The notes beneath the pieces are model-generated. The model worked only from the letters and a program-made list of their open reading frames with translations, did not search any database and had not been told where the DNA came from. Below are positions 12,164-58,221 of a stretch of 64,000 bases of DNA, piece by piece. The DNA is taken from positions 8,458 through 72,457 of the forward strand of contig CAYRHT010000002.1 of the NCBI GenBank assembly GCA_964424195.1, written 5' to 3'. The translations under genes were made by a program, and so were the position numbers. The DNA comes from an uncultured Gammaproteobacteria bacterium. GTDB taxonomy: Bacteria > Patescibacteriota > Patescibacteriia > UBA1558 > S5-K13. Position 1 is the first letter of the stretch. Each line of letters begins with the position of its first letter.

Positions 12164-15100
12164 TAAATTAAAACAATTAGATTATCGTTATTATATTGGA
12201 ATAATAGTTATTGCTATTGCAATAGTTTTTGGTTTAATTTTTATTTTACGAGCTCCAAAGTCAGCTGAAGCTGAATGGTTTAATGATGGCTGGTATTATC
12301 GAAAATCTATTCCAGTCACTAATAATACTACAACAGAAATGAACGTTTATGTTTCTGTTACCATTGATACTTCAGATACTACTAAATTTCAAACAGATTG
12401 TGATGATGTGCGTTTTACTAATAGTGCTGGTAATAGATTTCCTTATTATCTTGTTTCAGGTTGTGGTACAGACACAACAGTAATTCATGTTTATTTTAAT
12501 AACCTTGATGCTGGTTTACAAAATATTTATTATTATTATGGTAATTCATCTGTAGAACAAGGTTCTGTTGGTTCAAATTTTTCTACGGTAGCTTCTGATT
12601 ATACAATTGGAACTATTACTAGTGAGGAACAATCTGAAGTACCAATAGCTTATTGGTCATTTGATGAAGGTTATGGAACTATTGCTCATGATAATACTTC
12701 TAGTAAAAATCATGGGACTTTAACAAATATGACCACCACTGGTATTTCTACAGCTTGGGTAGATGGTAAGTTCGGAAAAGGATTGAAGTTCGGTGATCAT
12801 AATTATGATAATTTAGCATTAGAAGAGGAGATAGGTTTTAGTGATGGAGATGAACATACTTTATCTTTTTGGATAAAGAATGATGGTACAAATACTTACA
12901 TCACTGTAGCTGGGAAAGAAACTGAGAATGGAAATTCAATTTATATTATTGATAATAGTGTAAATTATATATTTTATTTTCGAAGTGCAACTCAAAAACA
13001 ATTAGTGTCAGGAGTGGATACAACAGTTTTGTTTGATAAGAATTGGCATCAAGTTGTAATGACTGTGAATTCTAGTAAGCTATGTTCAGTTTATTTTGAT
13101 GGTAAATTACAGGGATCAGCAACTTTGACTACTTCAGATATGATTTATAGTTCTATTGGTTCAGGAATAAATGCTTTTCAAGTTGATGGCATAATGGACG
13201 AAGTTAAAATATATAATTATGTCTTATCAGCTTCGCAAGTTAAAAAATCTTATTCTTCTAGGTCTAAGAATTTTACAGCTATGAATTTATCTAAGTCAAA
13301 AAAAGATGCTCAGAATAAAAGAAATGTGGGTCTAGTTGGTTTCTGGAAAATGGATGAGGATTCTTGGGATAGTACAGCCAATGAAGTAATTGATTATTCA
13401 GGACTAGGAAATCATGGTACCAGTTATGCTGATGCTACTACAACTTCTAGTGCTAGATATAATAGAGCGGGAGAATTTGATGGAACGGGAGATTATATTA
13501 GTTGTGGTAGTGATAGTAGTTTAGATATGGGTGACGGCAGTTTAACTATTGGAACATGGATTAAAGCAGATAATGTGGATAATTATATGGGTATTATTAA
13601 TAAGAGTGCTTTGGGAGGTAGTCTTGGTTGGGGCATGGGAATAACTAATGGCAAAGTTAGATGTGAAATCCATGATGGAAGTAGAGCTTGGACTGAATAT
13701 GATACAACAATTGAAATCGATACTTGGTATTATATTATGGCTGTATTTGATAGAGGGGATGATAAAATAAAAGTTTATATTAACGGTAATAAAGAAAGTA
13801 CGGAGCTAGATATAACAGGTAAGGGATCAATAACTGGTTCTAACTGTTACATAGGTAGTCTTAATACTTCTGCTTGGATTTTCGATGGACAAGTTGATCA
13901 TGTTAAAGTTTGGAAACGAGCATTGACTACTAAAGAAATATCAGAAGAATATGTTACTGGACCAGCTCCAGTTGCTTATTGGTCCATGGATCAGATTGAC
14001 GGTACTACGGTTGTTGATCAGTCGGGAATGGGTAATGATTGTACTATGGATGGAGGAGTAACTAAAAATAATAATTGGAAGCCTGGGAAAGTAGGTCAGG
14101 CTTTATCATTTAAAGACGATGCTGATGCTCATCTTGATTGTGGTAATGATTCTAGTTTAGATATTACTGGAGCTATTACCATAGAATCTTGGGTTAAACC
14201 AGATTCATATGATTTTGCTTATCCTATGTTTCTTTCTAAGGCAGGATCATATTATAGAACTGGTTTAGCTGCTGCAGGTGATGGAAGAGTATTTTTTAGA
14301 GTGAGAGTTGGTGGTGCGTATAAAACAGCCTATTCCTCTTCAGACGTCCCTTTGAATGAATGGACTCATGTTATAGGAACTTATGATGGAGAATATATGA
14401 GAGTTTATGTAAATGGTATTTTAAATGGAACTCCCTTAGCTCTATCAGGTAATATTGAGACTAATGTTGCTTCATTAATAGTAGGTTCAGCTTCTTTTGA
14501 TGGAGATTTAGATGAAATTAAACTTTATAATTATGCTCTTACTCCATATCAAATAGCTCAAGCATATGGTAATGGAGCTCCACTTACTTATTGGTCATTT
14601 GATGAGGGACAAGGAACTACTGCTTATGATAGTTTAGGGAGTAAAAATCATGGAACTTTAACTAATATGACTACTACCGGAGTTTCTTCAGCTTGGGTAG
14701 ATGGAAAGTTTGGAAAGGGTTTGAGATTTGATGGTAGTGATGATTATATTGATGCAGGTGATTTTTTAGATAATGGTGAAACAACGGTTAGTTTATGGTT
14801 TAGAAGTAGTTATCAAGGAACACATAATGGTCTAATAGATTTTGCTGGATCTAGTGGTATTGGACATTTTGATTTTAATCATTCTGGAGACGATAGACCT
14901 ATTTTATATTTAGATTCTACTAATTTTCGTTATTTTGATGCTTCAGCCACAGATTATATGGATGGAGAATGGCATTATTTAGTACTATATATACCAGGGT
15001 CAGACATGGATGATGTTTCAAGTGCAACATTAAGTATTGATAATGTTAATATACCATCATCTAGCACATCTGCCGCCGGAACTCAGGATACTTGGAATGA

Positions 15101-17228
15101 TTTATATATTGGTAAAACTAATTATGGTTCTTTTAATGGTGATCTAGATGAAGTTAAAATATATAATTATCAACTTACTCCTTTTGATATTGAAAAAGAG
15201 TTTGTCTCTTCTAGAGGAAAGAAACAAACTGGGCTTAATTTATCTAAATCAGAACAAGATAATGAGAGTGCTCAAGTCGAAGGTTTAGTAGCTCATTGGA
15301 AAATGGATGAAGCTTCTTGGGATGGTACAGCTGATGAGGTAATAGATTATTCAGGCTTAGGAAATCATGGAGTGTCAGCAGATGATGCTCATACTACAAC
15401 TACTGCTAGGTATAATAGAGCGGGGGGATTTGATGGAACAGATGATAGGATTACGATTGCCAATGATGATTCTTTAAATCCATCATCGGCAATTACTATC
15501 TCAGCTTGGTTTTATGCTAATTCTTTTGATGGTGATAGTATTAGTGGCAATTGTATTTTATCAAAGGGTGCTAGTACTAATGGTTATTGGTTAGTTGTGG
15601 GTAGTGGAAAAGCTCATTTTAAATGGGGAAGTTATTTAACTAATGATCTTGATTCAGATACCTTTAATCCAACTACTGGAGAATGGCATCATATTTTAAT
15701 ATCTTATGATGGAAATCATGGTATTTTTTATTATGATGGAAATGAAGTTGGAGAAGGAGATATGACTAAGGGTGATAACAATACTAGTTCTATGTCTCTG
15801 GGTTATTATATTAGTCCAGTCCCAAATCATTTTGATGGAGCTTTAGATAATGTGAAGATTTGGAATCGTGCTTTGTCTCCTACAGAAGCAGTAAATGAAT
15901 ATCATAAAATATTATCTCCAGTTGGTTATTGGTCAATGGATAATATTGATGGAATTACAGTTACTGATGATTCAGGAATGGGAAATGATTGTACTATGGA
16001 TGGAGAATTAAACAAGGCTGATGATTGGAAGCCAGGAAAAGTAGGGCAATCTCTATTTTTTGAAAATTGTTATAATGGAGGTCAATGTGAAGGGCATCAC
16101 TTAGAATGTGGTAATGATTCTAGTTTAGATATCGAAGGGGCAATTACTGTTGAGCAATGGGTAAAACCAAACTCCTTTACTTATTATCCAATCTTTATGA
16201 GAAAACCAAGCGATCTTTATCGGATTGGTTTAAGAGGTACAAATCCTACAGAAAATTTAGGAGATGGTCGGGTATATTGGAGAATTAAGATTGGTGGAGT
16301 AGCTAAAGCTAAGAGTGGTGCTATTTATATTCCTTCAAATGAGTGGAGTCATGTAGTTGGGACTTATGATGGAGAATATATGAGGCTTTATATAAATGGT
16401 GTGTTAGACGGTGCACCTTATGCTGTGACTGGGGATATAGATGTTTCTACTTATGATTTGATAGTAGGCGCTTATAATCTTTCCGGTAATTATACTTTTG
16501 ATGGTGACATGGATGAAGTTAAACTTTATAATTATGCTCTTACTTCTCATCAAGTAGCTCAAGCATATAATAATGGTAAACCGATTGCTCATTGGACATT
16601 TAATGAAGGAGAAGGTGATGTAGTAAAAAATAAAATAAATAATACTTATCATGGAGATATAGTTAATGCTACTTATGTTTCTGGTAAATCTGATACTGCT
16701 TTAAATTTTGATGGAGATGGAGATTATATTGATTTTGATAATACTGAAGATGATACTTTTTATCCTACTACTACTTATGAATCAGTAACTATTGCTACTT
16801 GGATGAAATTAAATACAGCCAGTCAAGAATCAGCTGTGGTTGGAAGATTTGATTCAGTTGGATCTAATCATTGGTATAATTATGGTTCGGGTATAAAATA
16901 TGTTAATGGAGCTGTGAAAGTGATGGGAATGTCTAATGCAAATAATCCTTTATTAAGTTATGATTTAACAGATACAAGTTCTTGGCATCATGTTGTAGCT
17001 ATTGTGAATACAACAGATGGTAAGTTATATGTAGACGGTATTTTGAGAGATAGCGGAGATTTAAGTTCAAATGGCGGTTATGATTTTGCTATTGGAGCTC
17101 AAACTAATGCTGGAACTAGTTTTTACTTTGATGGGCAATTGGATGAAGTAAAAATATGGAATTATGGCTTAAGTCCATTAGATGTTCAAAATGATTATAA
17201 TCTAGGGAAAGGGGTGTTTTTTAAGTAG
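12156..17228 (+). CDS. Secreted giant protein made of seven concanavalin-A-like/LamG (Laminin_G_3-type) lectin domains.
   Basis: The leader 'MINKLKQLDYRYYIGIIVIAIAIVFGLIFILRAPKSAEA' is followed by repeated LamG signatures ('YWSFDEG', 'NHGTLTNMTTTG', 'WVDGKFGKGL', 'DGxLDEVK(I/L)YNYxLT'). A three-domain supermodule occurs twice. Confidence 0.75.
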   Translation: MINKLKQLDYRYYIGIIVIAIAIVFGLIFILRAPKSAEAEWFNDGWYYRKSIPVTNNTTTEMNVYVSVTIDTSDTTKFQTDCDDVRFTNSAGNRFPYYLVSGCGTDTTVIHVYFNNLDAGLQNIYYYYGNSSVEQGSVGSNFSTVASDYTIGTITSEEQSEVPIAYWSFDEGYGTIAHDNTSSKNHGTLTNMTTTGISTAWVDGKFGKGLKFGDHNYDNLALEEEIGFSDGDEHTLSFWIKNDGTNTYITVAGKETENGNSIYIIDNSVNYIFYFRSATQKQLVSGVDTTVLFDKNWHQVVMTVNSSKLCSVYFDGKLQGSATLTTSDMIYSSIGSGINAFQVDGIMDEVKIYNYVLSASQVKKSYSSRSKNFTAMNLSKSKKDAQNKRNVGLVGFWKMDEDSWDSTANEVIDYSGLGNHGTSYADATTTSSARYNRAGEFDGTGDYISCGSDSSLDMGDGSLTIGTWIKADNVDNYMGIINKSALGGSLGWGMGITNGKVRCEIHDGSRAWTEYDTTIEIDTWYYIMAVFDRGDDKIKVYINGNKESTELDITGKGSITGSNCYIGSLNTSAWIFDGQVDHVKVWKRALTTKEISEEYVTGPAPVAYWSMDQIDGTTVVDQSGMGNDCTMDGGVTKNNNWKPGKVGQALSFKDDADAHLDCGNDSSLDITGAITIESWVKPDSYDFAYPMFLSKAGSYYRTGLAAAGDGRVFFRVRVGGAYKTAYSSSDVPLNEWTHVIGTYDGEYMRVYVNGILNGTPLALSGNIETNVASLIVGSASFDGDLDEIKLYNYALTPYQIAQAYGNGAPLTYWSFDEGQGTTAYDSLGSKNHGTLTNMTTTGVSSAWVDGKFGKGLRFDGSDDYIDAGDFLDNGETTVSLWFRSSYQGTHNGLIDFAGSSGIGHFDFNHSGDDRPILYLDSTNFRYFDASATDYMDGEWHYLVLYIPGSDMDDVSSATLSIDNVNIPSSSTSAAGTQDTWNDLYIGKTNYGSFNGDLDEVKIYNYQLTPFDIEKEFVSSRGKKQTGLNLSKSEQDNESAQVEGLVAHWKMDEASWDGTADEVIDYSGLGNHGVSADDAHTTTTARYNRAGGFDGTDDRITIANDDSLNPSSAITISAWFYANSFDGDSISGNCILSKGASTNGYWLVVGSGKAHFKWGSYLTNDLDSDTFNPTTGEWHHILISYDGNHGIFYYDGNEVGEGDMTKGDNNTSSMSLGYYISPVPNHFDGALDNVKIWNRALSPTEAVNEYHKILSPVGYWSMDNIDGITVTDDSGMGNDCTMDGELNKADDWKPGKVGQSLFFENCYNGGQCEGHHLECGNDSSLDIEGAITVEQWVKPNSFTYYPIFMRKPSDLYRIGLRGTNPTENLGDGRVYWRIKIGGVAKAKSGAIYIPSNEWSHVVGTYDGEYMRLYINGVLDGAPYAVTGDIDVSTYDLIVGAYNLSGNYTFDGDMDEVKLYNYALTSHQVAQAYNNGKPIAHWTFNEGEGDVVKNKINNTYHGDIVNATYVSGKSDTALNFDGDGDYIDFDNTEDDTFYPTTTYESVTIATWMKLNTASQESAVVGRFDSVGSNHWYNYGSGIKYVNGAVKVMGMSNANNPLLSYDLTDTSSWHHVVAIVNTTDGKLYVDGILRDSGDLSSNGGYDFAIGAQTNAGTSFYFDGQLDEVKIWNYGLSPLDVQNDYNLGKGVFFK

Positions 17229-26010: not shown

Positions 26011-26508
26011 ATGAATCAAGAAAAAAACATAAATTCATTAATATCTATAATCTTTATTATAGTTATTATTATCTGTGGAATAATAGTTCTAGGTGTCTAT
26101 ATGAATGATCGATGGAAAAATATGAGAGATATTAGAAGGCAAGCAGATATTAAGAATACTATAAAAGCTGTTGATATATATTATTTAGACCATAGTAAGC
26201 TACCAGATAATGTTACCAATAATGAATGGGATTCTAGTTATGATTTAGCCAATAATAATCAAACTTTGTTTAAAGTATTGCGTGATAATAATCTTCTTTC
26301 TCAGATTTTTGATCCGAAGAATAATGAAGAATATCAGTATCGATATCATAAATTTAAAAGAGGGGAATATGGTTGTAGTAGGACATTTGCTATCTTTCAG
26401 GTAACTAAGTTTGAGACTGAAGTTGAAGATCATGGACAAGGAGAATGTTTAAGTAGAAATTTTGTTTTAGATGCTCCTAATGGATATACTTATATGTGGT
26501 TTGAATAG
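26011..26508 (+). CDS. Membrane-anchored protein with a pilin/pseudopilin-like globular region and no canonical prepilin signal.
   Basis: A transmembrane helix ('LISIIFIIVIIICGIIVLGVY') is followed by 'RDIRRQADIKNTIKAVDIYYLDHSKLP'. This matches the 'RDxQRxSD(I/L)xxIxxAxExYxxDxxxYP' pattern seen after the N-terminal helix of type IV pilin-like proteins, but the 'G-FTLIE' cleavage motif is absent. Confidence 0.4.
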   Translation: MNQEKNINSLISIIFIIVIIICGIIVLGVYMNDRWKNMRDIRRQADIKNTIKAVDIYYLDHSKLPDNVTNNEWDSSYDLANNNQTLFKVLRDNNLLSQIFDPKNNEEYQYRYHKFKRGEYGCSRTFAIFQVTKFETEVEDHGQGECLSRNFVLDAPNGYTYMWFE

Positions 26509-26527: not shown

Positions 26528-26556
26528 AAAAATCTCCTTTGAAGGAGATTTTTTGT
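26528..26556 (+). terminator. Rho-independent terminator.
   Basis: 'aaaatctcctttgaaggagattttttg': a 10-bp stem followed by a T-run. Confidence 0.7.
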
Positions 26557-26658
26557 TTTAAGGCTTGACATAATTATGGTAGAGGAGTAAGTTAAAGATA
26601 GACGGCTGTCAATTAACCGACGGCTATAAAGGTAGTATCTTATTTATGAAATAAATAT

Positions 26659-27330
26659 ATGTGGATCAAGTTTTTAGTTTTAATGCTTGTCGCTGTGCTT
26701 AATATAGTTTTAGGTTTGATTATTTTAATGAAGAATAAAAATAGAGATAAATCTAAACTATATTTTTCATTAATGTATTTTAGTGCTGGATTATGGTCTG
26801 GTAGTATATCCTTATCTCTATTAATAATTAATGAAGATATTTTTTTATGGTTTGCAAAATTTTTCTTTATTTTTGCTACTATGATTTTTCTTTCTTTTTT
26901 ATTGTTTTGTATTGAATTTCCGTATAAAATGAAGAAATTGCCAGTTTTATTTAAGTACCTTATTATTTTAGCTACTATTTATATATTTTATATTAGCTTG
27001 TCTAATAGATTATTAATTGGTGTAGAAAGTTATAAATTTGGATTACGAGAAGTTGAAAATAGTTTTTATCATTTAATATATGGAATGTATTTTTTTATTT
27101 TATTGATCTATAGTTATTATTCATTATTTTATAAATATTTTAATAGTAGTGGAGTTAATAAATCAAGATTATTATGGATTATAGTAAGCACTTTGATTTC
27201 TTTTACATTGGGTATATTTTTTCGTTGGTATTTGCCTTATAAGGATGCATATGATTTTTATTGGTTAGCACCTATATTTATTATATTTATGAACTTTTCA
27301 ATAACTTATTTATTATTTAAGAAAGATTAA
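26659..27330 (+). CDS. Stand-alone 7TM sensor-type integral membrane protein (paralog A). It is homologous to the N-terminal membrane domain of the histidine kinase at 32392.
   Basis: Six to seven hydrophobic helices. The N-terminal 47 aa are nearly identical to the next gene. It shares 'LFLGLIIL-K-K-K', 'WS' and 'YW(L/I/V)GP(I/V)' with the histidine kinase N-terminus. Confidence 0.6.
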   Translation: MWIKFLVLMLVAVLNIVLGLIILMKNKNRDKSKLYFSLMYFSAGLWSGSISLSLLIINEDIFLWFAKFFFIFATMIFLSFLLFCIEFPYKMKKLPVLFKYLIILATIYIFYISLSNRLLIGVESYKFGLREVENSFYHLIYGMYFFILLIYSYYSLFYKYFNSSGVNKSRLLWIIVSTLISFTLGIFFRWYLPYKDAYDFYWLAPIFIIFMNFSITYLLFKKD

Positions 27331-27335
27331 AATAT

Positions 27336-28019
27336 ATGTGGATAAAATTTAGTATTTTAATATTCGTTGCTCTGTTTAATATTAGTTTAGGTTTGATTAT
27401 TTTGTTGAAGAATAAGAATAAAGATAAATCTAAGTTATATTTTTCTCTGATGTGTTTTAGTGCTGGATTATGGAGCTTTGTTTCTGCTTTAGTTCAGATT
27501 ACAACTAATATTCCTTATTATATTTGGATTGATAGATCTATTTATGTTTTTACAAGTTTTTCAGTTTTATTCTTTTTGTTTTTTAGCTATGAATTTCAAT
27601 ATAAAATTAGAAAGATACCTAATATATTAAAGTATTTTTTTATTATACTAACTTTTTTGATGATTTTATTAGTTTTGTCTAATAAATTTATTATTGGTGT
27701 TTATCATTATAATGAATTTTTGTATCAATTAGAAAATAAAGGTTTAAATTTAATTTATGGACTGTATTTTATGATGTTATTAATTTGTAGTTATTATTTA
27801 TTATTTTTTAAGTGTTTTAAATCTCAGGGAATTAATAAATCAGTATTAAAATATCTTATTTATTCTACTTTATTCCCTTTCATACTAGCTGTTTTATTTG
27901 CTTGGTATTTTCCTTATACAGGAAGACATTATTTATATTGGATTGGTCCAATTTTTACAATTATTATGAATTATTTAATATTTCGTTTATTTTTAGGAAA
28001 GACAAAATTAAATGAATAA
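27336..28019 (+). CDS. Stand-alone 7TM sensor-type integral membrane protein (paralog B).
   Basis: It starts 5 nt after paralog A with 'MWIKFSILIFVALFNISLGLIILLKNKNKDKSKLYFSLMCFSAGLWS'. The C-terminal half has diverged. Confidence 0.6.
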   Translation: MWIKFSILIFVALFNISLGLIILLKNKNKDKSKLYFSLMCFSAGLWSFVSALVQITTNIPYYIWIDRSIYVFTSFSVLFFLFFSYEFQYKIRKIPNILKYFFIILTFLMILLVLSNKFIIGVYHYNEFLYQLENKGLNLIYGLYFMMLLICSYYLLFFKCFKSQGINKSVLKYLIYSTLFPFILAVLFAWYFPYTGRHYLYWIGPIFTIIMNYLIFRLFLGKTKLNE

Positions 28020-28977
28020 AGTTTTATTAATCTTTTATGGAGGAACTAAACTTTCTAATAAGAAGGGAAGTTTTATTTTCGTAGAAAAGAAGTCTAATAT
28101 TGAAAGCTGGATGAAAGAGGTGCCAGAGATTTCATTAATGGCGGACGTAAAAACGCTCTTTATAGATAAAAATAGTAGAATCTTAGACAAAAATAATGTT
28201 CAAGAATTAATTCGTCAGATAGAGAATCATATGGATCAAGTTGATGGAGTAGTGATATTACATGATGTTGATACTATTCCTTTGTTAGCTAATCAATTAT
28301 TTTGGCAGATTCAAAACCCTTCTAAACCAATAGTAATTACTGGATCAAATGTAATTGAACAAGCTAATGAATATTTACCAGATTTATCATTTAAAGCTAA
28401 TATTATTAATGCTTTTCAAGTTGTAAATAGTAGTCTTCATGAGATTAGTGTTATTTATGGTAATAGAGTCATTTTAGCTTCTAAGATAGTTCGAACTAAA
28501 TTACATGATTTAAATATATTTAAGGCTATTGATAAAGAGTATTTAGCTAGAATTGATTTTGGATTGTCTATTAAATCTAAAAAGAAATACAAAGAGAAGG
28601 TTAAATATTATTATGATTTTAATTATGATTTTTTGTTTTTTAATTCTATTCCTAGTATAGAAATATTAGAAACATTATTAAGTAAAGATAGTGATTTAAA
28701 GGTTATTGTCTTTAAAGCTTTACCTAATCAGATTATAGAAAGAGAAAAATTAGTGAAAGTTTTTAACTTAGCTCAGAAAAATAAGAAATTAGTTATTTTT
28801 TATAATCAGATTGGTTTTTCTAAAGATTTCTTTAAAGATACAATTTTAACTGTTAGTAAAATTAGTCCAGAGTGTTTAAGTGCTAAGTTATCTTGGATTT
28901 TAGGGCAAACTAAGGATGAGGATAAGATTAGGAGTTTATTAAAGAAGGATATTCAAGGAGAGTTTTTGAATCTATAA
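28012..28977 (+). CDS. L-asparaginase/glutaminase-family protein with a divergent active site.
   Basis: It aligns with type I asparaginase: 'LLIFYGGT' ~ 'YTGGTIGM' and 'DGVVILHDVDTI...KPIVITGSNVI' ~ 'DGFVILHGTDTM...KPVIVTGSQIP'. The second catalytic Thr of the 'HGTDT' motif is replaced (HDVDT). It overlaps the upstream 7TM gene by 8 nt. Confidence 0.55.
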   Translation: MNKVLLIFYGGTKLSNKKGSFIFVEKKSNIESWMKEVPEISLMADVKTLFIDKNSRILDKNNVQELIRQIENHMDQVDGVVILHDVDTIPLLANQLFWQIQNPSKPIVITGSNVIEQANEYLPDLSFKANIINAFQVVNSSLHEISVIYGNRVILASKIVRTKLHDLNIFKAIDKEYLARIDFGLSIKSKKKYKEKVKYYYDFNYDFLFFNSIPSIEILETLLSKDSDLKVIVFKALPNQIIEREKLVKVFNLAQKNKKLVIFYNQIGFSKDFFKDTILTVSKISPECLSAKLSWILGQTKDEDKIRSLLKKDIQGEFLNL

Positions 28978-28981: not shown

Positions 28982-29593
28982 ATGAAACTATATTATTGTG
29001 CAAATTTAGACAAGATGAGTGATAAGAAGTGGGAGAAAAAGTATATTGCTATCCATAAGTTTTTAGTTAAGAGCGGAATTAGTCTAGTTTCAAATGTTGA
29101 AAAAAAGATGGTAAATGGTGAAAATGAAGCTCGGAAAAGTATTTCCTATGATCAAATTGAAGCAGTTATTATAGAAGGAACGCATATTGCTTCTGATACA
29201 GTATATATTATTGCTACAGCTTTGGCATATAAAAAGCCAGTTTTATATCTAATGGAAAAAGGTCATCAAATACCGGATCAATTATCATATATTAGAAAAG
29301 ATAAAAATCTAGGTAAGAATTTTTTTCTTAAATTTTACAAGTCAGAAGGAAAAGAGGCAGAAAAAATAATCTTTGATTTTTTAGGGTTATTAGAATCTGG
29401 TACTTTAGTAAGAGAAAAAGTTAATGTTAAATTTACTTTAAGAATATCTCCAAGAATAGAGAGATATTTAAATTGGAAAGCTACAAGAATAAAGAAACCT
29501 AAAGCTGAATATGTAAGGGATGTTTTGAATAAAACAGCTATAGAAGATAAGAGTTATAAGTCATTTTTAAAGAAAATAGAGCAAGATTTTTAA
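28982..29593 (+). CDS. Hypothetical protein with a possible C-terminal ribbon-helix-helix-like segment.
   Basis: The C-terminal 'RISPRIERYLNWKATRIKKPKAEYVRDVLNKTA' resembles RHH/CopG-type DNA-binding tails. I do not recognise the N-terminal alpha/beta domain. Confidence 0.3.
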   Translation: MKLYYCANLDKMSDKKWEKKYIAIHKFLVKSGISLVSNVEKKMVNGENEARKSISYDQIEAVIIEGTHIASDTVYIIATALAYKKPVLYLMEKGHQIPDQLSYIRKDKNLGKNFFLKFYKSEGKEAEKIIFDFLGLLESGTLVREKVNVKFTLRISPRIERYLNWKATRIKKPKAEYVRDVLNKTAIEDKSYKSFLKKIEQDF

Positions 29594-29658: not shown

Positions 29659-31428
29659 ATGGAAAATAATGAGACAATTTATAGTCGTTTTCAAAAAAAT
29701 GTATTAAATAATGGAAAGAAAACGGCGCTAGCTTATGTTAATAATGAAGATTATGAGAAAATAAGTTACCAAGAATTAAATAATTTTGTATTACAGATTG
29801 TTAATTATTTTTTAAGTTTAAAATTGAAAAAGGGGGACAGAGTAATTATCTTAAGTGAGAATAGATGGGAATGGCCAGTGATAGATTTAGCAAGTAATTA
29901 TTTAGGTTTAATTTTAGTACCAATTCATACTACTTATGGCTATAAATACATTAATTATATTATTGAGAAGACTGATCCAAAATTAGTCTTTATTTCAAAT
30001 CAAAAGCTATTTGAAAACTTTAAAAAGATTGATAAGAATTTAATAGATAAATTTCAAGAAATAATTTTGTTAGATAATAATGTAAAGGATGATTTAACAT
30101 TAAAATATTGGTCAGATATTATTAGTAATTTTGATAGTAAAGTTAATATTGATCCGGTTTTAGATTTAGAAACAATCATGACTATTATTTATACATCTGG
30201 AACTACTGGAATGCCCAAGGGAGCTGTTTTAACTAATCATAATATTTTAGTTAATATTGATAATGTTTTGAAATATGTGCCAATATATTCTAATGATAGA
30301 TTTTTTTCTTTCTTACCATTATCACATGTTTTAGAAAGAGTTGCTGGTAATATAGTACCTTTGACATTAGGAGCTTCTATTTATTATAGTCGTAATCCAA
30401 AAACTTTAGTCGACGATATCAAAAAAGCTCAACCAACTATCATGGTCTCGGTTCCGAGAATTTTTGAAAAAATATTTGATAAAATTCATGATAAGTTAAG
30501 AGATGGTTCTAAATTTAAACATCAACTTTTTTATCATGCTTTAAAAGTTGTTAGTAAAATTAATGCTTCTAAAAGAAACAAAGAAAAACCTAATAAATTA
30601 ATATATTTACAATCTAAGGTTTTAGATAGTCTAGTCTTTAAGAAAATTAGGAGTATTTTTGGAGGTCATTTAAGATTGGCAATTTCTGGAGGTTCAAGTT
30701 TAGATAGAAAAATAGCTAGGTTTTTTGAAGACGTGGGAGTCCAAGTAATAGAGGGCTATGGTTTAACAGAAACTTCTCCAATTATTGCTGTGAATAAGAT
30801 AGATGATTATAAATTTGGTACTGTTGGTTCAGTTTTAGCAAATTTAGATTTAAAAATAAATGATGATAAAGAAATTTTGGTTAAAGGAAGCTCAGTGATG
30901 TCTGGTTATTGGCAAGACGAAGAGTCAACAAAGAATGCTCTTCAAGATGGATGGTTTTCTACTGGAGATCTTGGTTTCATGGATAAGGATGGTTTTTTAA
31001 ATATAATTGGTCGTAAGAAGGAAATGATAGTTTTATCAACTGGTAAGAATATTATTCCAGTGAATATTGAATTAGCTGTAAATTATGATCGGTTTATTAC
31101 TCAATCATTAGTTATTGGTTTAAATCGGAAATTTATTACGGCTTTGATTGTTCCCGATTTTGAAGAATTAAAAATATATTGTCAGCAGAATGATATTAAA
31201 TGTAGTGAAAATAAAGATTGTTTAGGAAATGAAAAAATACAGAAATTATATCAGAATCGGATTAATAAGTCTTTAAAAGGTTTTGCAGATTATGAACAGA
31301 TTAAAAGTTTTTATTTAGTAGATCGGGAATTTGATCAAGAACACGATGAATTAACGCCTACTTTGAAGTTGAAGAGGGAGAATATTAAGAGTAATTTCTT
31401 TCAAATAATTGATAAATTTTATGAGTAA
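29659..31428 (+). CDS. Long-chain acyl-CoA (or acyl-ACP) synthetase, AMP-dependent ligase family.
   Basis: AMP-binding signature 'IIYTSGTTGMPKGAVLTNHNIL', plus 'GYGLTETSP' and 'WFSTGDLGFMDKDGFLNIIGRKKEMI'. Confidence 0.85.
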   Translation: MENNETIYSRFQKNVLNNGKKTALAYVNNEDYEKISYQELNNFVLQIVNYFLSLKLKKGDRVIILSENRWEWPVIDLASNYLGLILVPIHTTYGYKYINYIIEKTDPKLVFISNQKLFENFKKIDKNLIDKFQEIILLDNNVKDDLTLKYWSDIISNFDSKVNIDPVLDLETIMTIIYTSGTTGMPKGAVLTNHNILVNIDNVLKYVPIYSNDRFFSFLPLSHVLERVAGNIVPLTLGASIYYSRNPKTLVDDIKKAQPTIMVSVPRIFEKIFDKIHDKLRDGSKFKHQLFYHALKVVSKINASKRNKEKPNKLIYLQSKVLDSLVFKKIRSIFGGHLRLAISGGSSLDRKIARFFEDVGVQVIEGYGLTETSPIIAVNKIDDYKFGTVGSVLANLDLKINDDKEILVKGSSVMSGYWQDEESTKNALQDGWFSTGDLGFMDKDGFLNIIGRKKEMIVLSTGKNIIPVNIELAVNYDRFITQSLVIGLNRKFITALIVPDFEELKIYCQQNDIKCSENKDCLGNEKIQKLYQNRINKSLKGFADYEQIKSFYLVDREFDQEHDELTPTLKLKRENIKSNFFQIIDKFYE

Positions 31429-32395
31429 TAAGTTTTTATTTACTACGCAATTAAGACATATAAACGATTTGGATATGAAATATTCATTTCTAAGATTCAT
31501 TCCAAGATGTATAAAATATTTTTTATTAAAAATATACCCTATTAAGTATAAAATATATCCTTTATTAGAAAAAGGGAATATTAAGGGATATTTATTAGTA
31601 TTTTTATACACATCAAAACAAATTATTTCTAATAAAAAATATTTTAGTACTTTATTTTTGAAGATTATTAAAAAAATTAAACGTAAAATGAATTTTTCTA
31701 TTGTTGGATTAGGTTCTTTTACTTCAGTTGTTTCTCATGGTGGTGTAGATTATCATAATTCTATAAAGGATGTGTCATTTACAAACGGTAATGCTTTGAC
31801 TACTTATGTTACTTTTAAGCATTTATTGCAAATACTTGATTTTTTAGATAAAAAAATAAGTATAGCTGTTATTGGCGCGAATGGTTCTATAGGATCAGCT
31901 ATCACAGCTTTAATATGTCAGTCTGGAATGTTTGGTGATGTAATGTGTATAGTTAGAAATAATACAAGTGTTTTAGATTCTTATAATTTAAATAATATTT
32001 TAATATCTTCTGATATTAATAAAATATCATCATATGATGTTATTGTTATGTGTACTTCAAGTAAAGAGGTTTTATTAGATAAAATAAATCTTAAACCTGG
32101 TGTGATTATTTATGATATTACTCAGCCGTCTAATATTTCTGATAATTTTAAACATAAAAAGAATGTTAAAGTTTTTACTGGGGGATTATTAAAATTAGGA
32201 TCAAACTTGAAATTGAATATTGATTTAGGATATGGTAAAGATATAATTTACGGTTGTTTAGGGGAAACAATTTTATTGTCAATGTTTAAATATGATCAAG
32301 ATTTTTCTTTAGGACATGTAACTATTGATAAAGTTGAACAAATAGGAAATATGTTAAATGAATCAGAAATAAAAGTAATAAAATTAAAATTATGA
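31409..32395 (+). CDS. NAD(P)-binding reductase homologous to cyanobacterial acyl-ACP reductase (AAR, fatty-aldehyde forming).
   Basis: It aligns with AAR: 'LGSFTSVV' ~ 'LGGFTSII', 'FTNGNALTTYVTF' ~ 'FTTGNTHTAYVIC', 'IAVIGANGSIGSAI' ~ 'VAVVGATGDIGSAV'. It overlaps the synthetase by 20 nt and the kinase by 4 nt. Confidence 0.55.
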   Translation: MINFMSNKFLFTTQLRHINDLDMKYSFLRFIPRCIKYFLLKIYPIKYKIYPLLEKGNIKGYLLVFLYTSKQIISNKKYFSTLFLKIIKKIKRKMNFSIVGLGSFTSVVSHGGVDYHNSIKDVSFTNGNALTTYVTFKHLLQILDFLDKKISIAVIGANGSIGSAITALICQSGMFGDVMCIVRNNTSVLDSYNLNNILISSDINKISSYDVIVMCTSSKEVLLDKINLKPGVIIYDITQPSNISDNFKHKKNVKVFTGGLLKLGSNLKLNIDLGYGKDIIYGCLGETILLSMFKYDQDFSLGHVTIDKVEQIGNMLNESEIKVIKLKL

Positions 32396-34590
32396 GATCC
32401 TTATTATTATTTTTAATAGCGTGTATAAATTTGTTTTTAGGATTGATTATTCTCACTAAAGGTAAAAGTAAAAAATATAATATTTATTATTTTTTAGTTG
32501 TTTTATCTTTGTCGTTTTGGTCGCTTGGAGTGGGGATGTTTTATTATAATACAGATATTAGTTTTTATGACGTTTTTTTTGTAAAAGTATTATATTTTTT
32601 TGGCTCACTTATATCTACTAGTTTTTTAGGATTTGTTTTATCTTTTCCTAAAGATAAGAAAATAAATTTAAAATGGAATGTATTACTATTTTCCCCTAAT
32701 TTTTTATTATTCTATTTAATCTTTATAACAAATAATGTTATAGATAGTGTATATATTGATACTTTTAAAAAAATAGCATATGGTAACTATTTATTTATTT
32801 TTAATATAGAATTTATACTTATATTATTGGTAGCATATCTAATTTTATTAAAAAAATATTTTTTAGTTAAAAATAAAAATTCTTTATTAAAAAAACAATT
32901 ACAGTATATTACTATAGGAACTTTGATTTCTGCAATGATTGGTTCTTTTTGTAATATTATATTACCGGCTTTAGGAAATTTTTCAGTATTTTGGGTTGGT
33001 CCAGTTTCTACAATATTTATGGTGGGTTTATTTACTTATGCTATTACGCGTTATCGTCTCATGGATATCCGTCTAGTGATATCTAAAAGTATTTTGTACG
33101 TAGCTTTGGTTGGTATTATTACTTTCTTGTTTACTACAGCCACTTTGTTAACTGGAGAAATCTTTGTTGATATACCAGGGGTATCAAAGACATTAATTAC
33201 TTTAGGTGTTTCTTTAATAATAGTTATAGGAATTGATCCTCTGAAAAGATTTTTAAATAATATTACTGATAAAGTATTCTATAGAGGTAAAATTGATTAT
33301 CAAGATGTTTTAAGAAAGTTAGGTGGAATCATTGCTAAAGAAATTGATCTAAAAAAACTACTTATTGATTTATCTCATAATATTGAAGAGTTATTAAAGT
33401 ATAAAGAGGTAGATTTTTTGTATAAGAGTAATAGTTCTGGAATTTACCGAGGAATTATTAATAATAATGAGGTGATCACAGATAAAGAAGAAATAGTTAA
33501 ATATTTAGAAGATTCACGGGAGATTATTCTTACTGAAGAATTAGAAATTAAAGCACGTGATAAGGGTGTAGAAGAAAAAAAATATCTTCTTTCTATAGCT
33601 AAACGTTTACGAACAATGAATATTGGATTAATAGCTCCAATAATATCAGAAAATAATATCATTGCTTTTTTGATTATTAATAAGAAGTTATCAGACGATG
33701 TTTTTTCTACTCCAGATTTAAATTTAATATCAGTAATGACTCCTCAAATTGCTAATGCTTTAGAAAAGGCTAAACTATATAGCGAAGTTCAAGAATTTAA
33801 TGTTAAATTACAAGAAAAGGTGGATAAAGCTACTGGAGAATTAAAACGTGCTAATATTGATTTAAAAGAAGCCAATGTTCATTTAAAGCAATTAGATGAG
33901 GCTAAATCAGAATTTTTATCAATTGCTTCTCATCAATTGAGAACTCCATTAACTGGAATAAAAGGATATTTATCTATGATTCTAGAGGGGGACTATGGAA
34001 AGATGGATAAAAAACAAGAAAAGATTATTCAAGATGTATTTAATGCTAGTGATCGAATGAGTAGATTAATTAATGTCTTCTTAAATGTTTCTCGAATTGA
34101 ATCTGGTCGTTTGAAATTAGACTATACAGATGTTAATTTAGGAAATCTAATTAATGAATGTATTAAAGACTTGCACTCAACTGCTCAAGAAAAAGGTTTA
34201 GAGTTGAATTTTAAGTATCAGAAGAATGAAATTCCGTTAGTAAGCGTTGATTCTGATAAAATGAAAGATGTAGTTTTAAATTTAATTGATAATGCTATTA
34301 AATATACCCATAAAGGTAGGATTGATATTAAATTATTAAAAGAAGGGGAGGATAAAATTTTAGTTCAAATTAAGGATACTGGTATAGGTTTAGATCAAGC
34401 TGGAATAGAAAAATTATTTAGTAAATTTTCTCGAGGGGATGGTATTTCTAAGATTAATACAGGCGGTTCTGGGTTAGGTCTTTATATCGTGAAAAGAATT
34501 ATTGAAGAACATGGTGGAAAAGCTTGGGTAGAGAGTGATGGAGTGGGTAAGGGAAGTACTTTTCAATTTACTCTACCGATTAATAAATAG
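32392..34590 (+). CDS. Sensor histidine kinase with an N-terminal 7TM sensor, a GAF-like region, HisKA and HATPase_c.
   Basis: H-box 'ASHQLRTPLTGIKGY'; N/G boxes 'LIDNAIKYT' and 'DTGIGL...GGSGLGLYIVKRIIEEHGG'. Seven N-terminal helices are paralogous to 26659 and 27336. No response regulator lies in the window. Confidence 0.85.
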   Translation: MRSLLLFLIACINLFLGLIILTKGKSKKYNIYYFLVVLSLSFWSLGVGMFYYNTDISFYDVFFVKVLYFFGSLISTSFLGFVLSFPKDKKINLKWNVLLFSPNFLLFYLIFITNNVIDSVYIDTFKKIAYGNYLFIFNIEFILILLVAYLILLKKYFLVKNKNSLLKKQLQYITIGTLISAMIGSFCNIILPALGNFSVFWVGPVSTIFMVGLFTYAITRYRLMDIRLVISKSILYVALVGIITFLFTTATLLTGEIFVDIPGVSKTLITLGVSLIIVIGIDPLKRFLNNITDKVFYRGKIDYQDVLRKLGGIIAKEIDLKKLLIDLSHNIEELLKYKEVDFLYKSNSSGIYRGIINNNEVITDKEEIVKYLEDSREIILTEELEIKARDKGVEEKKYLLSIAKRLRTMNIGLIAPIISENNIIAFLIINKKLSDDVFSTPDLNLISVMTPQIANALEKAKLYSEVQEFNVKLQEKVDKATGELKRANIDLKEANVHLKQLDEAKSEFLSIASHQLRTPLTGIKGYLSMILEGDYGKMDKKQEKIIQDVFNASDRMSRLINVFLNVSRIESGRLKLDYTDVNLGNLINECIKDLHSTAQEKGLELNFKYQKNEIPLVSVDSDKMKDVVLNLIDNAIKYTHKGRIDIKLLKEGEDKILVQIKDTGIGLDQAGIEKLFSKFSRGDGISKINTGGSGLGLYIVKRIIEEHGGKAWVESDGVGKGSTFQFTLPINK

Positions 34591-34607: not shown

Positions 34608-35078
34608 ATGTATATTATTCATGAACAAAAACAAAGATCTAGTATTATAGTTATATTAATATATATTATTTCTTCTATAATTCTATTATTAGTTGTTATT
34701 AATCCAAGATTCTTAAGTTTACCGGAATTAACAAAAGTTTCTAGAATAGTTTTAATTATAGTTTTATTAATTGATATCTTTTTTTTAGAAAGTTTTTACG
34801 AATTGAAATTTAAAATAACTAATGAAGGTTTAGAATTTGGTTATGGTTTATTGAAGAATAAAATTAGTAAAAATAGTATTAAATCAATCTCAATTTATAG
34901 TTCTAAAGGCAATTTTTTTGGTTATGGTATTAGGTTTAATAAAAGTAAGGTAATGGGATTTATAGCTCAACATGGTGAAGGTTTAGAAATAACTCATAAA
35001 GACCAAAGGAAGTTTTTTATTACTATGAATAATCCACAAGAAGCCTTAGATATTATTAAAGAAAATAACTATGTATAA
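34608..35078 (+). CDS. Hypothetical membrane protein (bacterial PH-like?).
   Basis: An N-terminal hydrophobic helix followed by a small soluble domain. It overlaps pgk by 8 nt. Confidence 0.35.
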   Translation: MYIIHEQKQRSSIIVILIYIISSIILLLVVINPRFLSLPELTKVSRIVLIIVLLIDIFFLESFYELKFKITNEGLEFGYGLLKNKISKNSIKSISIYSSKGNFFGYGIRFNKSKVMGFIAQHGEGLEITHKDQRKFFITMNNPQEALDIIKENNYV

Positions 35079-57383: not shown

Positions 57384-58157
57384 ATGAAAAAGAAAATTGG
57401 AATTATGGGTTTTGGAGAAATTGGTCAATCAGTTGCTAGATTATATCCAAAATCAAAGTATCAAATTTTATCTAAAGATTTAAAACATGATTCTCTAAAA
57501 GAGGAGAGGGTTGATGTTTTGCATATAGCTATCCCATATAGCAGTGATTTTATTAAAGACGTTGTAAAACAAGTTAAATTAAATCAACCAGAATTTGTAA
57601 TTATAGAATCAACTACTAATGTAGGAGTTACTAGTAAGATTAATAGTAAATTAAAAAAGAAAATAGTAGTTCATAGTCCAGTTCGAGGAATGCATCCTAA
57701 CTTGACAAAAAGCTTAAAATGTTTCATAAAGTATATTGGAGCAGATAATAAGAATATTGGGGAGAGAGCAGTGAGGCATTATCAAGCTATTGGAGTTAAA
57801 TCTAAACTTTTTATGCCATCTGAGTCAACTGAACTAAATAAAATATTATCAACTTCTTATTATGGAATTTGTATTGCTTGGGCTGCAGAAATTAAAAGAT
57901 TATGTGATCAGCACGGTGTAGATTATAAATCATTTGAAGATTTTAATAATTCTTATAATGAAGGTTACCTTAAGATGGGATTAAAAAATGTAGTTCGTCC
58001 GACTCTATATCCACCAAAAAATGGTATTGGAGGTCATTGTGTATGGGAAAATGCAACTATGTTTAATCCCCGAGCTAAATCAAAGTTTTTAGATTTAATA
58101 TTAGATGCTGGTAAAGATAAATCTGCTAAAACATTAAAGTTAAAAAAGAAAAGTTAA
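57384..58157 (+). CDS. NAD(P)-binding Rossmann-fold oxidoreductase (short UDP-glucose/GDP-mannose dehydrogenase-like?).
   Basis: N-terminal 'KIGIMGFGEIGQSVA' (GxGxxG) and 'GIGGHCV'. The family assignment is uncertain. Confidence 0.35.
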   Translation: MKKKIGIMGFGEIGQSVARLYPKSKYQILSKDLKHDSLKEERVDVLHIAIPYSSDFIKDVVKQVKLNQPEFVIIESTTNVGVTSKINSKLKKKIVVHSPVRGMHPNLTKSLKCFIKYIGADNKNIGERAVRHYQAIGVKSKLFMPSESTELNKILSTSYYGICIAWAAEIKRLCDQHGVDYKSFEDFNNSYNEGYLKMGLKNVVRPTLYPPKNGIGGHCVWENATMFNPRAKSKFLDLILDAGKDKSAKTLKLKKKS

Positions 58158-58221
58158 TTTGTTTGGTTCTATTTAGTATGATATACTCTTAATAGAGTAT
58201 CCTTTTATGGATAATGATAAG

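What the first reader, a model, noticed from the sequence alone, without database searches (positions are those of the whole stretch)
26659..28019. Tandem pair of stand-alone 7TM sensor domains that are paralogs of the membrane sensor of a nearby histidine kinase
Two adjacent genes (223 and 227 aa) have N-terminal 47-aa segments that are almost identical ('MWIKF..NI(V/S)LGLIIL(M/L)KNKN(R/K)DKSKLYFSLM(Y/C)FSAGLWS'). They share helix layout and motifs ('LFLGLIIL.KGK.K', 'YWVGPV') with the first ~200 aa of the histidine kinase at 32392, which looks like a HisKA_7TM-type sensor. Here the sensor module exists twice without any kinase or output domain. The two copies might heterodimerise with the kinase to modulate it, or act as independent receptors or decoys. 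The near-identity of the N-termini against diverged C-termini suggests gene conversion.
Basis: partly seen in the sequence, partly recalled or inferred. Interest (0 to 1): 0.55.

Follow-up and report, generated by a model that had tools for sequence, protein, structure and literature searches.

The report
Kinase-less 7TM receptors in regulatory operon
Two adjacent genes in a small-genome (Patescibacteria-type) bacterium encode bare seven-helix membrane receptors of a kind normally fused to a histidine kinase, and they sit in a conserved operon with a catalytically dead asparaginase-like protein and a putative DNA-binding regulator, which suggests a signalling route that does not use a kinase.

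Summary
Genes A (26659-27330) and B (27336-28019) are 49% identical, and both pass the curated Pfam HisKA_7TM cut-off, as does the kinase at 32392. The gene-conversion idea fails: synonymous divergence is equal in the N-terminal block and the rest, A's N-terminus is no closer to its own genome's B than to B genes elsewhere, and A-type proteins from other genomes carry the same block.

Bare HisKA_7TM proteins are common: 76 of the 150 best cluster representatives. A and B lie in an all-stand-alone clade, not next to the neighbouring kinase's domain.

Best reading: kinase-independent membrane receptors feeding a cytoplasmic regulator pair. The signalling mechanism is inferred, and a link to the kinase is not excluded.

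The parts
26528..26553 (+). Terminator-like hairpin ending the upstream 165-aa gene. It marks the 5' boundary of the operon.
   Evidence: 11-bp stem followed by a T run. The sequence was read.
26565..26593 (+). Conserved promoter-like element: TTGACA (26565-26570), a 17-nt spacer, then TAAGTT (26588-26593).
   Evidence: Coordinates were counted by hand from the sequence printed. The same TTGACA-N17-(G)TAAGTT/TAAATT/TAGGTT layout lies upstream of the hexamer pair in 11 of 11 aligned loci. The generic promoter scan did not list it because its -10 box is a weak match.
26601..26624 (.). Operator-like element: GACGGC, 12 nt, GACGGC. The consensus is G[C/A]CG[T/G]C-N12-G[C/A]CG[T/G]C, and each half-site is pseudo-palindromic.
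   Evidence: It is the only exact site in the 64-kb window, which holds only 4 such hexamers. A site with at most 1 mismatch lies within -800 to +30 nt of the first operon gene in 35 of 63 loci (28 exact), typically at -27 to -77. No Rfam family matches there.
26659..27330 (+). Gene A: stand-alone HisKA_7TM protein, 223 aa. It is the fast-evolving paralog.
   Evidence: PF16927 scores 43.6 bits against a cut-off of 28.6. Comparison with its L001 ortholog gives 51% aa identity, dN 0.36 and omega 0.40.
27336..28019 (+). Gene B: stand-alone HisKA_7TM protein, 227 aa. It is the conserved, ancestral-type paralog.
   Evidence: PF16927 scores 51.3 bits. Comparison with its L001 ortholog gives 82% identity, dN 0.09 and omega 0.15. 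Single-copy genomes carry B-like sequences. The AF2 model (pLDDT 90.6) has 7 TM helices and a beta-hairpin at residues 119-133.
28012..28977 (+). Pseudo-asparaginase (ASPL), 321 aa. Its start codon overlaps B's stop codon by 8 nt.
   Evidence: Pfam Asparaginase scores 80.3 bits. It aligns end to end with archaeal type I asparaginase 1WLS. NCBIfam asnASE_I scores 82.9 against a cut-off of 260.5. HGTDT reads HDVDT. Only 1 of 69 family members keeps T12, T89 and D90 together.
28982..29593 (+). P203: 203-aa protein with an N-terminal nucleoside-2-deoxyribosyltransferase/Rcl/MilB-like domain and a C-terminal beta-alpha-alpha tail that looks like a ribbon-helix-helix (RHH) motif. It is the putative regulator.
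32392..34590 (+). Histidine kinase (HisKA_7TM, weak GAF, HisKA, HATPase_c), 732 aa. It is a family-level paralog of A and B and lies outside the operon.
   Evidence: Domains from Pfam. No hexamer pair lies upstream of it, only a single hexamer at 32125. Pfam scans of the ORFs of at least 100 aa between 8.7 and 64 kb found no response regulator; the two giant ORFs at 139-8682 and 12156-17228 were not scanned.

Best explanation
A and B are complete, functional membrane receptors of the HisKA_7TM family that never had a kinase domain in this lineage. They are the first two genes of a four-gene operon: promoter, GNCGNC-N12-GNCGNC element, 7TM-A, 7TM-B, pseudo-asparaginase (ASPL), P203. The core of the operon is the ASPL-P203 pair, which is conserved across a wide range of Patescibacteria. 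P203 has a non-catalytic nucleoside-deoxyribosyltransferase-like domain, likely ligand-binding, and an RHH-like tail. It probably binds the paired hexamers overlapping the transcription start and so autoregulates the operon. Kinase-less HisKA_7TM proteins have been attached to this pair at least twice: as bare 7TM genes upstream (1-7 copies) and as 7TM-GAF genes downstream. The likely mechanism is as follows. Each 7TM protein senses a membrane or extracellular cue in its GPCR-like helix bundle. It passes the signal by protein contact from its cytoplasmic face to the soluble pseudo-asparaginase and/or P203, which changes P203's DNA binding. B is the conserved receptor. A is an old duplicate that diverges four times faster, mostly on the outer half, consistent with a second specificity. 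Shown: family membership, fold, topology, operon layout, conservation of the linkage and of the cis element, loss of catalytic residues, and the selection regime. Inferred: the protein contacts, P203 binding to the hexamers, the direction of signal flow, and the ligand.
Against: No interaction, DNA-binding or expression data exist. The RHH assignment rests on a secondary-structure pattern, an invariant KFTLR strand and sub-threshold HicB hits. The C-terminal segment alone finds nothing in the PDB, and the strand has low confidence in the monomer model. Twenty of 42 fully testable loci have no adjacent 7TM gene, so the pair works without one. The inner/outer conservation difference is modest: 0.35 against 0.29 over all pairs. 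An 18-bp half-site spacing is not a whole number of helical turns. A stand-alone 7TM protein from another clade (L019) has different neighbours, so the link cannot be generalised to all bare HisKA_7TM proteins.
Confidence: 0.55

Rival explanations
1. A and B are accessory sensor subunits of the 7TM histidine kinase at 32392. They would form mixed oligomers with its membrane domain and tune or block it, and operon membership with ASPL-P203 would be secondary.
For: They share a domain family and N-terminal motifs with the kinase. The kinase has no response regulator among the ORFs scanned in the window. A 7TM kinase lies 2.8-6.5 kb downstream of P203 in 9 of 26 loci with enough sequence, including loci where P203 is only about 30% identical (L084, L085, L095). 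In L048, two bare 7TM genes sit directly upstream of a 750-aa 7TM kinase.
Against: Ten of 13 loci with the upstream bare-7TM arrangement have no kinase within at least 6 kb. A and B are in an all-stand-alone clade, and the window kinase's nearest neighbour is another long protein at distance 0.64. No hexamer pair precedes the kinase gene. Three unrelated genes separate the operon from the kinase. The kinase could still be encoded elsewhere in the genomes that lack it nearby, so this rival is weakened but not excluded. It could also coexist with the main model.
Confidence: 0.2
2. A and B are not sensors. They are membrane anchors, scaffolds or transporter-like partners that place ASPL-P203 at the membrane for a metabolic or envelope-related task, for example handling amides or scavenged nucleosides.
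For: Translational coupling of B with ASPL. The neighbourhood contains metabolic genes: a FadD-like ligase and a reductase-like gene. Nothing about the ligand is known.
Against: The enzyme-derived partners lack catalytic residues. In its other architectures the family is a sensor input to kinases, GAF and PAS domains: 51 of 71 long relatives have HATPase_c. The fold is receptor-like, not transporter-like. P203 carries a probable DNA-binding tail, and a conserved cis element accompanies the operon.
Confidence: 0.12
3. The adjacency is only inherited gene order in slowly rearranging small genomes, with no functional link between the 7TM genes and ASPL-P203.
For: Close relatives share long synteny from TGT and L25 through PGK.
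Against: The flanks are completely different in L008, L012, L016, L018 and L010, yet the module is intact. The association recurs in a second arrangement, with 7TM-GAF genes downstream. Start and stop codons overlap, and a single conserved promoter/operator-like element precedes the first 7TM gene.
Confidence: 0.05
4. A and B are decaying remnants of truncated histidine kinases, and their similar N-termini come from recent gene conversion.
For: They lack output domains, and the N-terminus is 79% identical against 41% for the rest.
Against: Both ORFs are intact, with omega 0.40 and 0.15. Orthologs exist in many genomes. Seventy-six of the 150 best cluster representatives are also 200-262 aa, and 97 of 107 stand-alone domains have a stand-alone nearest neighbour. 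dS is equal along the gene. A shows no excess similarity to B within the same genome. The N-terminal block is present in A-types of other genomes.
Confidence: 0.02

Closest known systems
HisKA_7TM (Pfam PF16927) sensor domains of histidine kinases, for example in haloarchaeal kinases (Galperin et al. 2018, PMC5847659)
   Same: Same sequence family, above the curated cut-off, with the same seven-helix N-out/C-in layout. The kinase at 32392 is a standard member.
   Different: A and B end right after helix 7 and have no HisKA, HATPase_c, GAF or PAS domain. The two papers found that mention the domain treat it only as a kinase sensor. The operon partners are not two-component proteins.
7TMR-DISM receptors (Anantharaman and Aravind 2003, cited from my own knowledge; RgsP, PMC6107284) and LytS-type 7TM kinases such as BtsS (PMC10653868)
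   Same: These are bacterial seven-helix membrane sensor modules that feed cytoplasmic signalling domains. A and B give weak sub-threshold hits to 7TMR-DISM_7TM.
   Different: 7TMR-DISM_7TM scores are below its cut-off: 15.7 and 21.1 against 29. Those receptors are fused to their outputs, whereas here the output must be a separate protein.
Eukaryotic G-protein-coupled receptors
   Different: Sequence identity is 6-16% and there is no evidence of common descent. There are no G proteins. The proposed partner is a pseudo-asparaginase and a DNA-binding protein.
Sensory rhodopsin II with its separate transducer HtrII (my own knowledge)
   Same: A prokaryotic seven-helix receptor without an output domain that signals through a separately encoded partner from the same operon.
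   Different: The fold family differs (microbial rhodopsin with retinal), the partner is a membrane transducer feeding CheA, and there is no sequence relation.
RHH autorepressors that bind repeated short boxes, such as MetJ, Arc, CopG and omega of pSM19035, which accepts direct or inverted heptads (my own knowledge)
   Same: A small beta-alpha-alpha DNA-binding tail and an operator of two short pseudo-palindromic boxes overlapping the transcription start. The box orientation flips between lineages.
   Different: The RHH assignment is not proven here. The 18-bp spacing and the fusion to a deoxyribosyltransferase-like domain are unusual.
Type I L-asparaginases (1WLS, E. coli AnsA) and Rcl/DNPH1/MilB N-glycosidases
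   Same: ASPL shares the asparaginase fold and family. The N-terminal domain of P203 shares the Rcl/MilB fold.
   Different: The catalytic Thr, Thr-Asp and Lys are not conserved in ASPL. The catalytic Glu is replaced by Ile or Leu in P203. Both are probably non-enzymatic.

Membership tests
HisKA_7TM (PF16927) | Match to the family HMM above the curated gathering score of 28.6 bits | tested here: met
   A scores 43.6 bits, B 51.3 bits and the kinase 52.4 bits.
HisKA_7TM (PF16927) | Seven transmembrane helices with the C-terminus in the cytoplasm | tested here: met
   The AF2 model of B has pLDDT 90.6 and 7 helices. Loop charges are 12 K+R on the inside and 3 on the outside.
HisKA_7TM (PF16927) | Located at the N-terminus of a histidine kinase, the architecture that names the family | tested here: not met
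   A and B end 3-7 residues after helix 7, and the next gene is asparaginase-like. The feature is met for the 732-aa protein at 32392. Seventy-six of the 150 best relatives also lack any extension.
Two-component sensor histidine kinase | HisKA (or equivalent) phospho-acceptor domain plus HATPase_c | tested here: not met
   Both are absent from A and B and present in the 32392 protein.
7TMR-DISM_7TM (PF07695) | Match above the gathering score of 29 bits | tested here: not met
   A scores 15.7 bits and B 21.1 bits.
G-protein-coupled receptors | GPCR-type seven-helix fold | tested here: met
G-protein-coupled receptors | Sequence homology to a GPCR class, and coupling to G proteins or arrestins | tested here: not met
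   Identity is 6-16%, and no GPCR family appears in the Pfam scan. Coupling is not testable here. This is a fold resemblance only, not membership.
L-asparaginase type I (for the downstream partner ASPL) | Family HMM match | tested here: inconclusive
   Pfam Asparaginase N-terminal domain scores 80.3 bits against 22.5 (met). NCBIfam asnASE_I scores 82.9 against 260.5 (not met).
L-asparaginase type I (for the downstream partner ASPL) | Catalytic residues: nucleophile Thr in GGT, Thr-Asp in HGTDT, and Lys (E. coli AnsB T12, T89, D90, K162; my own knowledge) | tested here: not met
   The window protein reads GGT but HDVDT, with Arg at the Lys position. Of 69 family members, only 1 keeps T12, T89 and D90 together, and the T89 position is V, L or I in 47.
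Nucleoside 2-deoxyribosyltransferase / Rcl (DNPH1) / MilB (for P203) | Fold of the family | tested here: met
Nucleoside 2-deoxyribosyltransferase / Rcl (DNPH1) / MilB (for P203) | Catalytic Glu (GYELG in Rcl) and a family HMM match | tested here: not met
   The Glu aligns with Ile or Leu, and the profile E-value to DNPH1 is only about 0.05. Pfam Nuc_deoxyrib_tr is sub-threshold, in 2 of 27 members.
Ribbon-helix-helix DNA-binding proteins (for P203) | N-terminal beta-strand followed by two helices that forms a dimeric DNA-binding ribbon, plus a family HMM match | tested here: inconclusive
   A strand-helix-helix pattern at residues 145-188 with an invariant KFTLR. There are weak HicB hits in 11 of 27 members, best E=0.0018. 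The C-terminal segment finds no PDB sequence hit. Dimer formation and DNA binding are not testable here.
Known anti-phage defence systems (PADLOC) | Match of any operon protein to a PADLOC model | tested here: not met
   No hits at E<=0.1 for A, B, ASPL or P203.

The most novel reading that the evidence does not exclude
Patescibacteria possess a previously undescribed, kinase-independent transmembrane signalling pathway. Arrays of GPCR-fold receptors (bare HisKA_7TM or 7TM-GAF, 1-7 per operon) would signal by direct contact through a pseudo-asparaginase adaptor to a transcription factor built from a dead nucleoside-hydrolase fold and an RHH tail, which controls its own operon through the GNCGNC-N12-GNCGNC operator. 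Receptor number and the outward-facing surfaces would diversify to recognise different cues, possibly host-derived cues in these episymbionts.
Probability: 0.3. Interest if true: 0.85.

Novelty: new variant of a known kind. Interest (0 to 1): 0.62.

Why it matters
HisKA_7TM is a large sensor family: 5585 cluster representatives match the profile at E<=0.001. I found no paper reporting a ligand for it or discussing its kinase-less forms, and only two papers in the library mention it. Three results stand out:

- About half of the closest relatives are bare receptors.
- One clade of them is locked into an operon with two enzyme-derived, apparently non-catalytic proteins.
- A conserved cis element accompanies that operon.

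Together these give a concrete, testable route by which a seven-helix bacterial receptor could signal without phosphotransfer. They also define a widely conserved, uncharacterised regulator pair (ASPL-P203) and its probable operator in Patescibacteria. These organisms have few recognisable signalling proteins, and their sensing of hosts is poorly understood. If the protein contacts are confirmed, it would be a prokaryotic system that works like receptor plus soluble transducer, as GPCRs do, on a GPCR-like fold.

Tried and rejected
- **Gene conversion.** I rejected it on three independent tests: equal dS along the gene, no within-genome excess similarity, and the N-terminal block also present in A-types of other genomes. 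I briefly reconsidered it because window A is closer to B-types in its N-terminus but closer to A-types elsewhere. One search showed that the P0002/P0003 lineage is the deviant one.
- **N-terminal block as a family-wide hot spot of conservation.** This is not supported. Across 29 operon-linked bare 7TM proteins it scores 0.33 against 0.28 for the rest. The strong constraint is specific to this sub-clade.
- **Truncated-kinase pseudogenes.** Rejected.
- **Known RNA element in the 5' region.** None was found in Rfam at gathering or permissive thresholds. The two hexamers are direct repeats in most loci and cannot pair with each other.
- **Known defence system.** There are no PADLOC hits.
- **Early conclusion that the kinase is irrelevant.** I softened this after the wider census showed a 7TM kinase downstream in 9 of 26 loci.
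- **Technical dead ends.** The afdb50 fold library was unavailable. The sequence search of P203's C-terminus against the PDB found nothing.
- **Unreliable link.** A jackhmmer link between the 165-aa gene upstream of the operon and the 156-aa gene after the kinase is probably driven by hydrophobic segments, so I did not use it.
- **Literature.** Five searches found no description of stand-alone HisKA_7TM proteins or of this operon. The library does not cover most subscription journals.
Full report
**1. The observation.**
The window has about 23-35% G+C, and nearly all genes lie on the + strand.
- A and B align without gaps at 49% identity, E=3e-63.
- A matches the N-terminal ~210 residues of the 732-aa protein at 32392-34590 at 31% identity (E=2e-18), and B at 29% (E=1e-10).
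- All three exceed the curated Pfam cut-off for HisKA_7TM (43.6, 51.3 and 52.4 bits against 28.6). Only the 732-aa protein also has HisKA and HATPase_c.
- The first 47 residues are 37/47 identical, against 72/176 for the rest (Fisher p=5.6e-6).

"Almost identical" is somewhat overstated.

**2. Gene conversion is not the explanation.**
- Nei-Gojobori estimates give dS 0.83 for codons 1-47 and 0.75 for codons 48-223. Only dN differs, at 0.14 against 0.48.
- A's N-terminal DNA is 80% identical to B in the same genome. It is 78%, 75% and 84% identical to B genes of three other genomes, so there is no within-genome homogenisation.
- A-type proteins from other genomes (P0011, P0013, P0015, P0017) carry the same `...LYFSLMCFSAGLWS` block, and only the P0002/P0003 lineage has drifted.

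The block is ancestral and kept by purifying selection. In the model it corresponds to TM1, the lysine-rich first cytoplasmic loop and the inner half of TM2. It is not a family-wide hot spot: over 29 operon-linked bare 7TM proteins it scores 0.33 against 0.28.

**3. Two paralogs with different tempos.**
A diverged relative (L001) has the same tandem pair. Closer examination of other relatives shows a single B-like gene.
- Between the window and L001, B is 82% identical (dN 0.09, omega 0.15).
- A is only 51% identical (dN 0.36, omega 0.40).
- ASPL and P203 have omega values of 0.11 and 0.10.

A is therefore an old, retained and faster-evolving duplicate, not a pseudogene. A and B are 58% identical on the predicted cytoplasmic half and 41% on the outer half. 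That trend is modest.

**4. Fold and topology.**

**5. Stand-alone forms are common and old.**
An exhaustive profile search found 5585 cluster representatives at E<=0.001 and 84 at E<=1e-30. Of the best 150, 76 are 200-262 aa long. Of the 71 longer ones, 51 have HATPase_c, 49 have HisKA, about 30 have GAF and about 11 have PAS. Some carry two to four 7TM modules in one chain. In a neighbour-joining tree of 197 domains:
- 97 of 107 stand-alone domains have a stand-alone nearest neighbour.
- A and B lie in a pure stand-alone clade of 29.
- The window kinase's nearest neighbour is another long protein, at distance 0.64.

The paralogy with the neighbouring kinase is therefore at the family level and is not a recent derivation. 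Only two papers in the library mention the domain, both as a kinase sensor.

**6. The conserved operon.**
B's stop codon overlaps the start of a 321-aa asparaginase-family gene (28012-28977) by 8 nt. A 203-aa gene (28982-29593) follows 4 nt later. The order 7TM(n), ASPL, P203 holds in every fetched locus of this clade, including loci whose other neighbours are entirely different (L008, L012, L016, L018, L010). Look-ups starting from P203 homologs returned the same order in 3 of 3 cases. The 7TM copy number is 1, 2, 5 or 7. In L010, five paralogs share only 19-42% identity, and a 99-100% identical duplication of a two-gene unit is present in L010 but missing from the otherwise matching L011.

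**7. The partner proteins.**
- **ASPL.** It aligns end to end with archaeal type I asparaginase 1WLS (E=2e-14) but reads `HDVDT` where the enzymes have `HGTDT`. Arg aligns with the catalytic Lys. NCBIfam asnASE_I scores 82.9 against a cut-off of 260.5. Among 69 full-length family members, only one keeps T12, T89 and D90 together. The T89 position is V, L or I in 47. The roles of these residues are established enzymology, cited from my own knowledge. ASPL is best described as a pseudo-asparaginase.

**8. A cis element that travels with the operon.**
Upstream of A lie, in order:
- a terminator-like hairpin (26528-26553);
- `TTGACA` (26565-26570), 17 nt, `TAAGTT` (26588-26593);
- `GACGGC`-N12-`GACGGC` (26601-26624).

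The window contains only four such hexamers in 64 kb, and this is its only pair. The promoter and hexamer-pair layout is conserved in 11 of 11 aligned loci. Half-site orientation flips between lineages, consistent with the pseudo-palindromic consensus G[C/A]CG[T/G]C. Across 63 loci, a site with at most one mismatch lies within -800 to +30 nt of the first operon gene in 35 (28 exact), typically at -27 to -77. In about 16 distant loci, a second exact site lies just after P203. In L006, L013 and L020, an extra gene has been inserted between this element and the 7TM gene. No Rfam family matches. P203 is the only candidate DNA-binding protein in the operon, so I infer that it binds this element.

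**9. Wider census.**
A metagenome scan seeded with P203 gave 79 more loci.

| Test | Result |
|---|---|
| ASPL directly upstream of P203 (at least 1.1 kb of upstream sequence) | 65 of 65 |
| Bare 7TM gene(s) directly upstream of ASPL | 19 of 58 (14 single, 3 double, one with 5, one with 7) |
| Kinase-less 7TM protein of 453-489 aa directly downstream of P203 | 8 of 55, plus L084 and L085 with 4-nt overlaps |
| Adjacent 7TM gene on either side (loci testable on both sides) | 22 of 42 |
| 7TM kinase further downstream (at least 7.5 kb of downstream sequence) | 9 of 26 |
| Loci with the upstream bare-7TM arrangement that lack a kinase within at least 6 kb | 10 of 13 |

Eight of the nine downstream 7TM proteins scanned pass the HisKA_7TM cut-off, some with weak GAF hits, and they often occur in tandem. 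The kinase-less 7TM family is therefore linked to the ASPL-P203 pair in two different gene orders, which argues for function over inherited synteny. A bare 7TM from another clade (L019) has different neighbours.

**10. Mechanism proposed.**
- **Shown:** family membership, fold, topology, operon layout, conservation of the linkage and of the cis element, loss of catalytic residues, and the selection regime.
- **Inferred:** the 7TM proteins sense a membrane or external cue and pass it by contact from their cytoplasmic face to ASPL and/or P203. P203, possibly also responding to a nucleoside-like ligand, binds the paired hexamers at the transcription start and autoregulates the operon. A and B provide two input specificities.

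I put about 0.55 on this overall. Operon membership and the functional linkage are much firmer than the direction and nature of signal flow.

**11. Rivals.**
Modulation of the nearby kinase is the main one (0.2). It is supported by recurrent but non-universal proximity, and by the absence of a response regulator among the window ORFs scanned. It could coexist with the main model. The others are a non-signalling scaffold or transport role (0.12), synteny without function (0.05), and kinase remnants with gene conversion (0.02).

**12. Comparison with what is known, and novelty.**
A and B are members of HisKA_7TM by sequence and fold, but they lack the kinase context that names the family. They are not members of 7TMR-DISM_7TM (below cut-off) and not GPCRs (fold only). 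The system works most like a receptor with a separate soluble transducer, as in GPCRs or sensory rhodopsin II with HtrII (my own knowledge), but with unrelated partners. No PADLOC defence model matches, and five literature searches found no description. I rate it a new variant of a known kind. The receptor family is known and bare forms are already in databases. The operon, its pseudoenzyme partners and its operator-like element appear to be undescribed.

**13. Organism.**
Close homologs come from records named Candidatus Komeilibacteria and "Patescibacteria group bacterium". L002 and L003 are identical to the window across this region, and gene B's product occurs on a 953-kb contig.

Noticed in passing
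window 29659-32395: A FadD-like acyl-AMP ligase (589 aa) and a 328-aa NAD-binding protein lie between the operon and the kinase. The second resembles acyl-ACP reductase and the PigE N-terminal region. Homologs of the ligase occur near the ASPL-P203 pair, upstream or downstream, in 25 ORFs across the fetched loci.
   Followed up: partly
L029, L030, L033, L036, L040-L045, L049, L050, L055, L063, L072, L082 (about +1.6 to +2.1 kb from the ASPL start): A second exact GNCGNC-N12-GNCGNC site lies just downstream of P203 in many distant loci, ahead of small unannotated ORFs of 60-160 aa. This suggests a second regulated unit that is absent from the window.
   Followed up: partly
L006, L013, L020 (for example L006 7419-7793 and 9661-9936): In these close relatives a 124-aa 23S_rRNA_IVP-family gene is inserted between the conserved promoter/operator-like element and the 7TM gene. 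In L006 a GIY-YIG gene lies between ASPL and P203, and a similar gap of 454-484 nt is present in L013 and L020.
   Followed up: partly
L010 3888-8675 against L011 2442-5863: Two contigs that carry the same protein (P0021) and the same flanking genes hold 7 and 5 tandem 7TM genes. The difference is a 99-100% identical duplication of a two-gene unit, so copy number changes on short time scales.
   Followed up: yes
L048, +4.3 to +7.1 kb from the P203 start: Two bare 7TM genes (227 and 220 aa) sit directly upstream of a 750-aa 7TM histidine kinase.
   Followed up: no
P0060 (1495 aa) and the ~1090-aa relatives P0037, P0041 and P0061: Some relatives carry two to four HisKA_7TM modules in one polypeptide, a fused counterpart of the tandem gene arrays.
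   Followed up: no
window ~58000-60000: Cumulative GC skew peaks near 58 kb, and gene orientation switches from + to - at about 59 kb, next to a tyrosine recombinase gene (58279-59235). This looks like a replication terminus with a Xer-type recombinase.
   Followed up: no
window 139-8682 and 12156-17228: Two giant ORFs of 2847 and 1690 aa. The L001 gene upstream of the shared syntenic block carries DUF2341 and laminin-G-like domains, so these are probably surface proteins.
   Followed up: no
window 32392-34590: The 7TM histidine kinase has no response regulator among the window ORFs scanned. In relatives it is 924 aa with clearer GAF hits, against 732 aa and only a weak GAF hit here.
   Followed up: partly
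window 26011-26508 and 34608-35078: The 165-aa pilin-like membrane protein just upstream of the operon and the 156-aa protein just after the kinase were linked by iterative jackhmmer (E about 1e-25 after iteration). The link may be an artefact of hydrophobic segments.
   Followed up: no
window 27336-28019, residues 86-89 and 119-133 of B: An invariant E-F-x-Y motif sits at the cytoplasmic end of helix 3, and a beta-hairpin lies between helices 4 and 5. These are the positions of the DRY motif and the ECL2 hairpin in class A GPCRs (the GPCR comparison is from my own knowledge).
   Followed up: no
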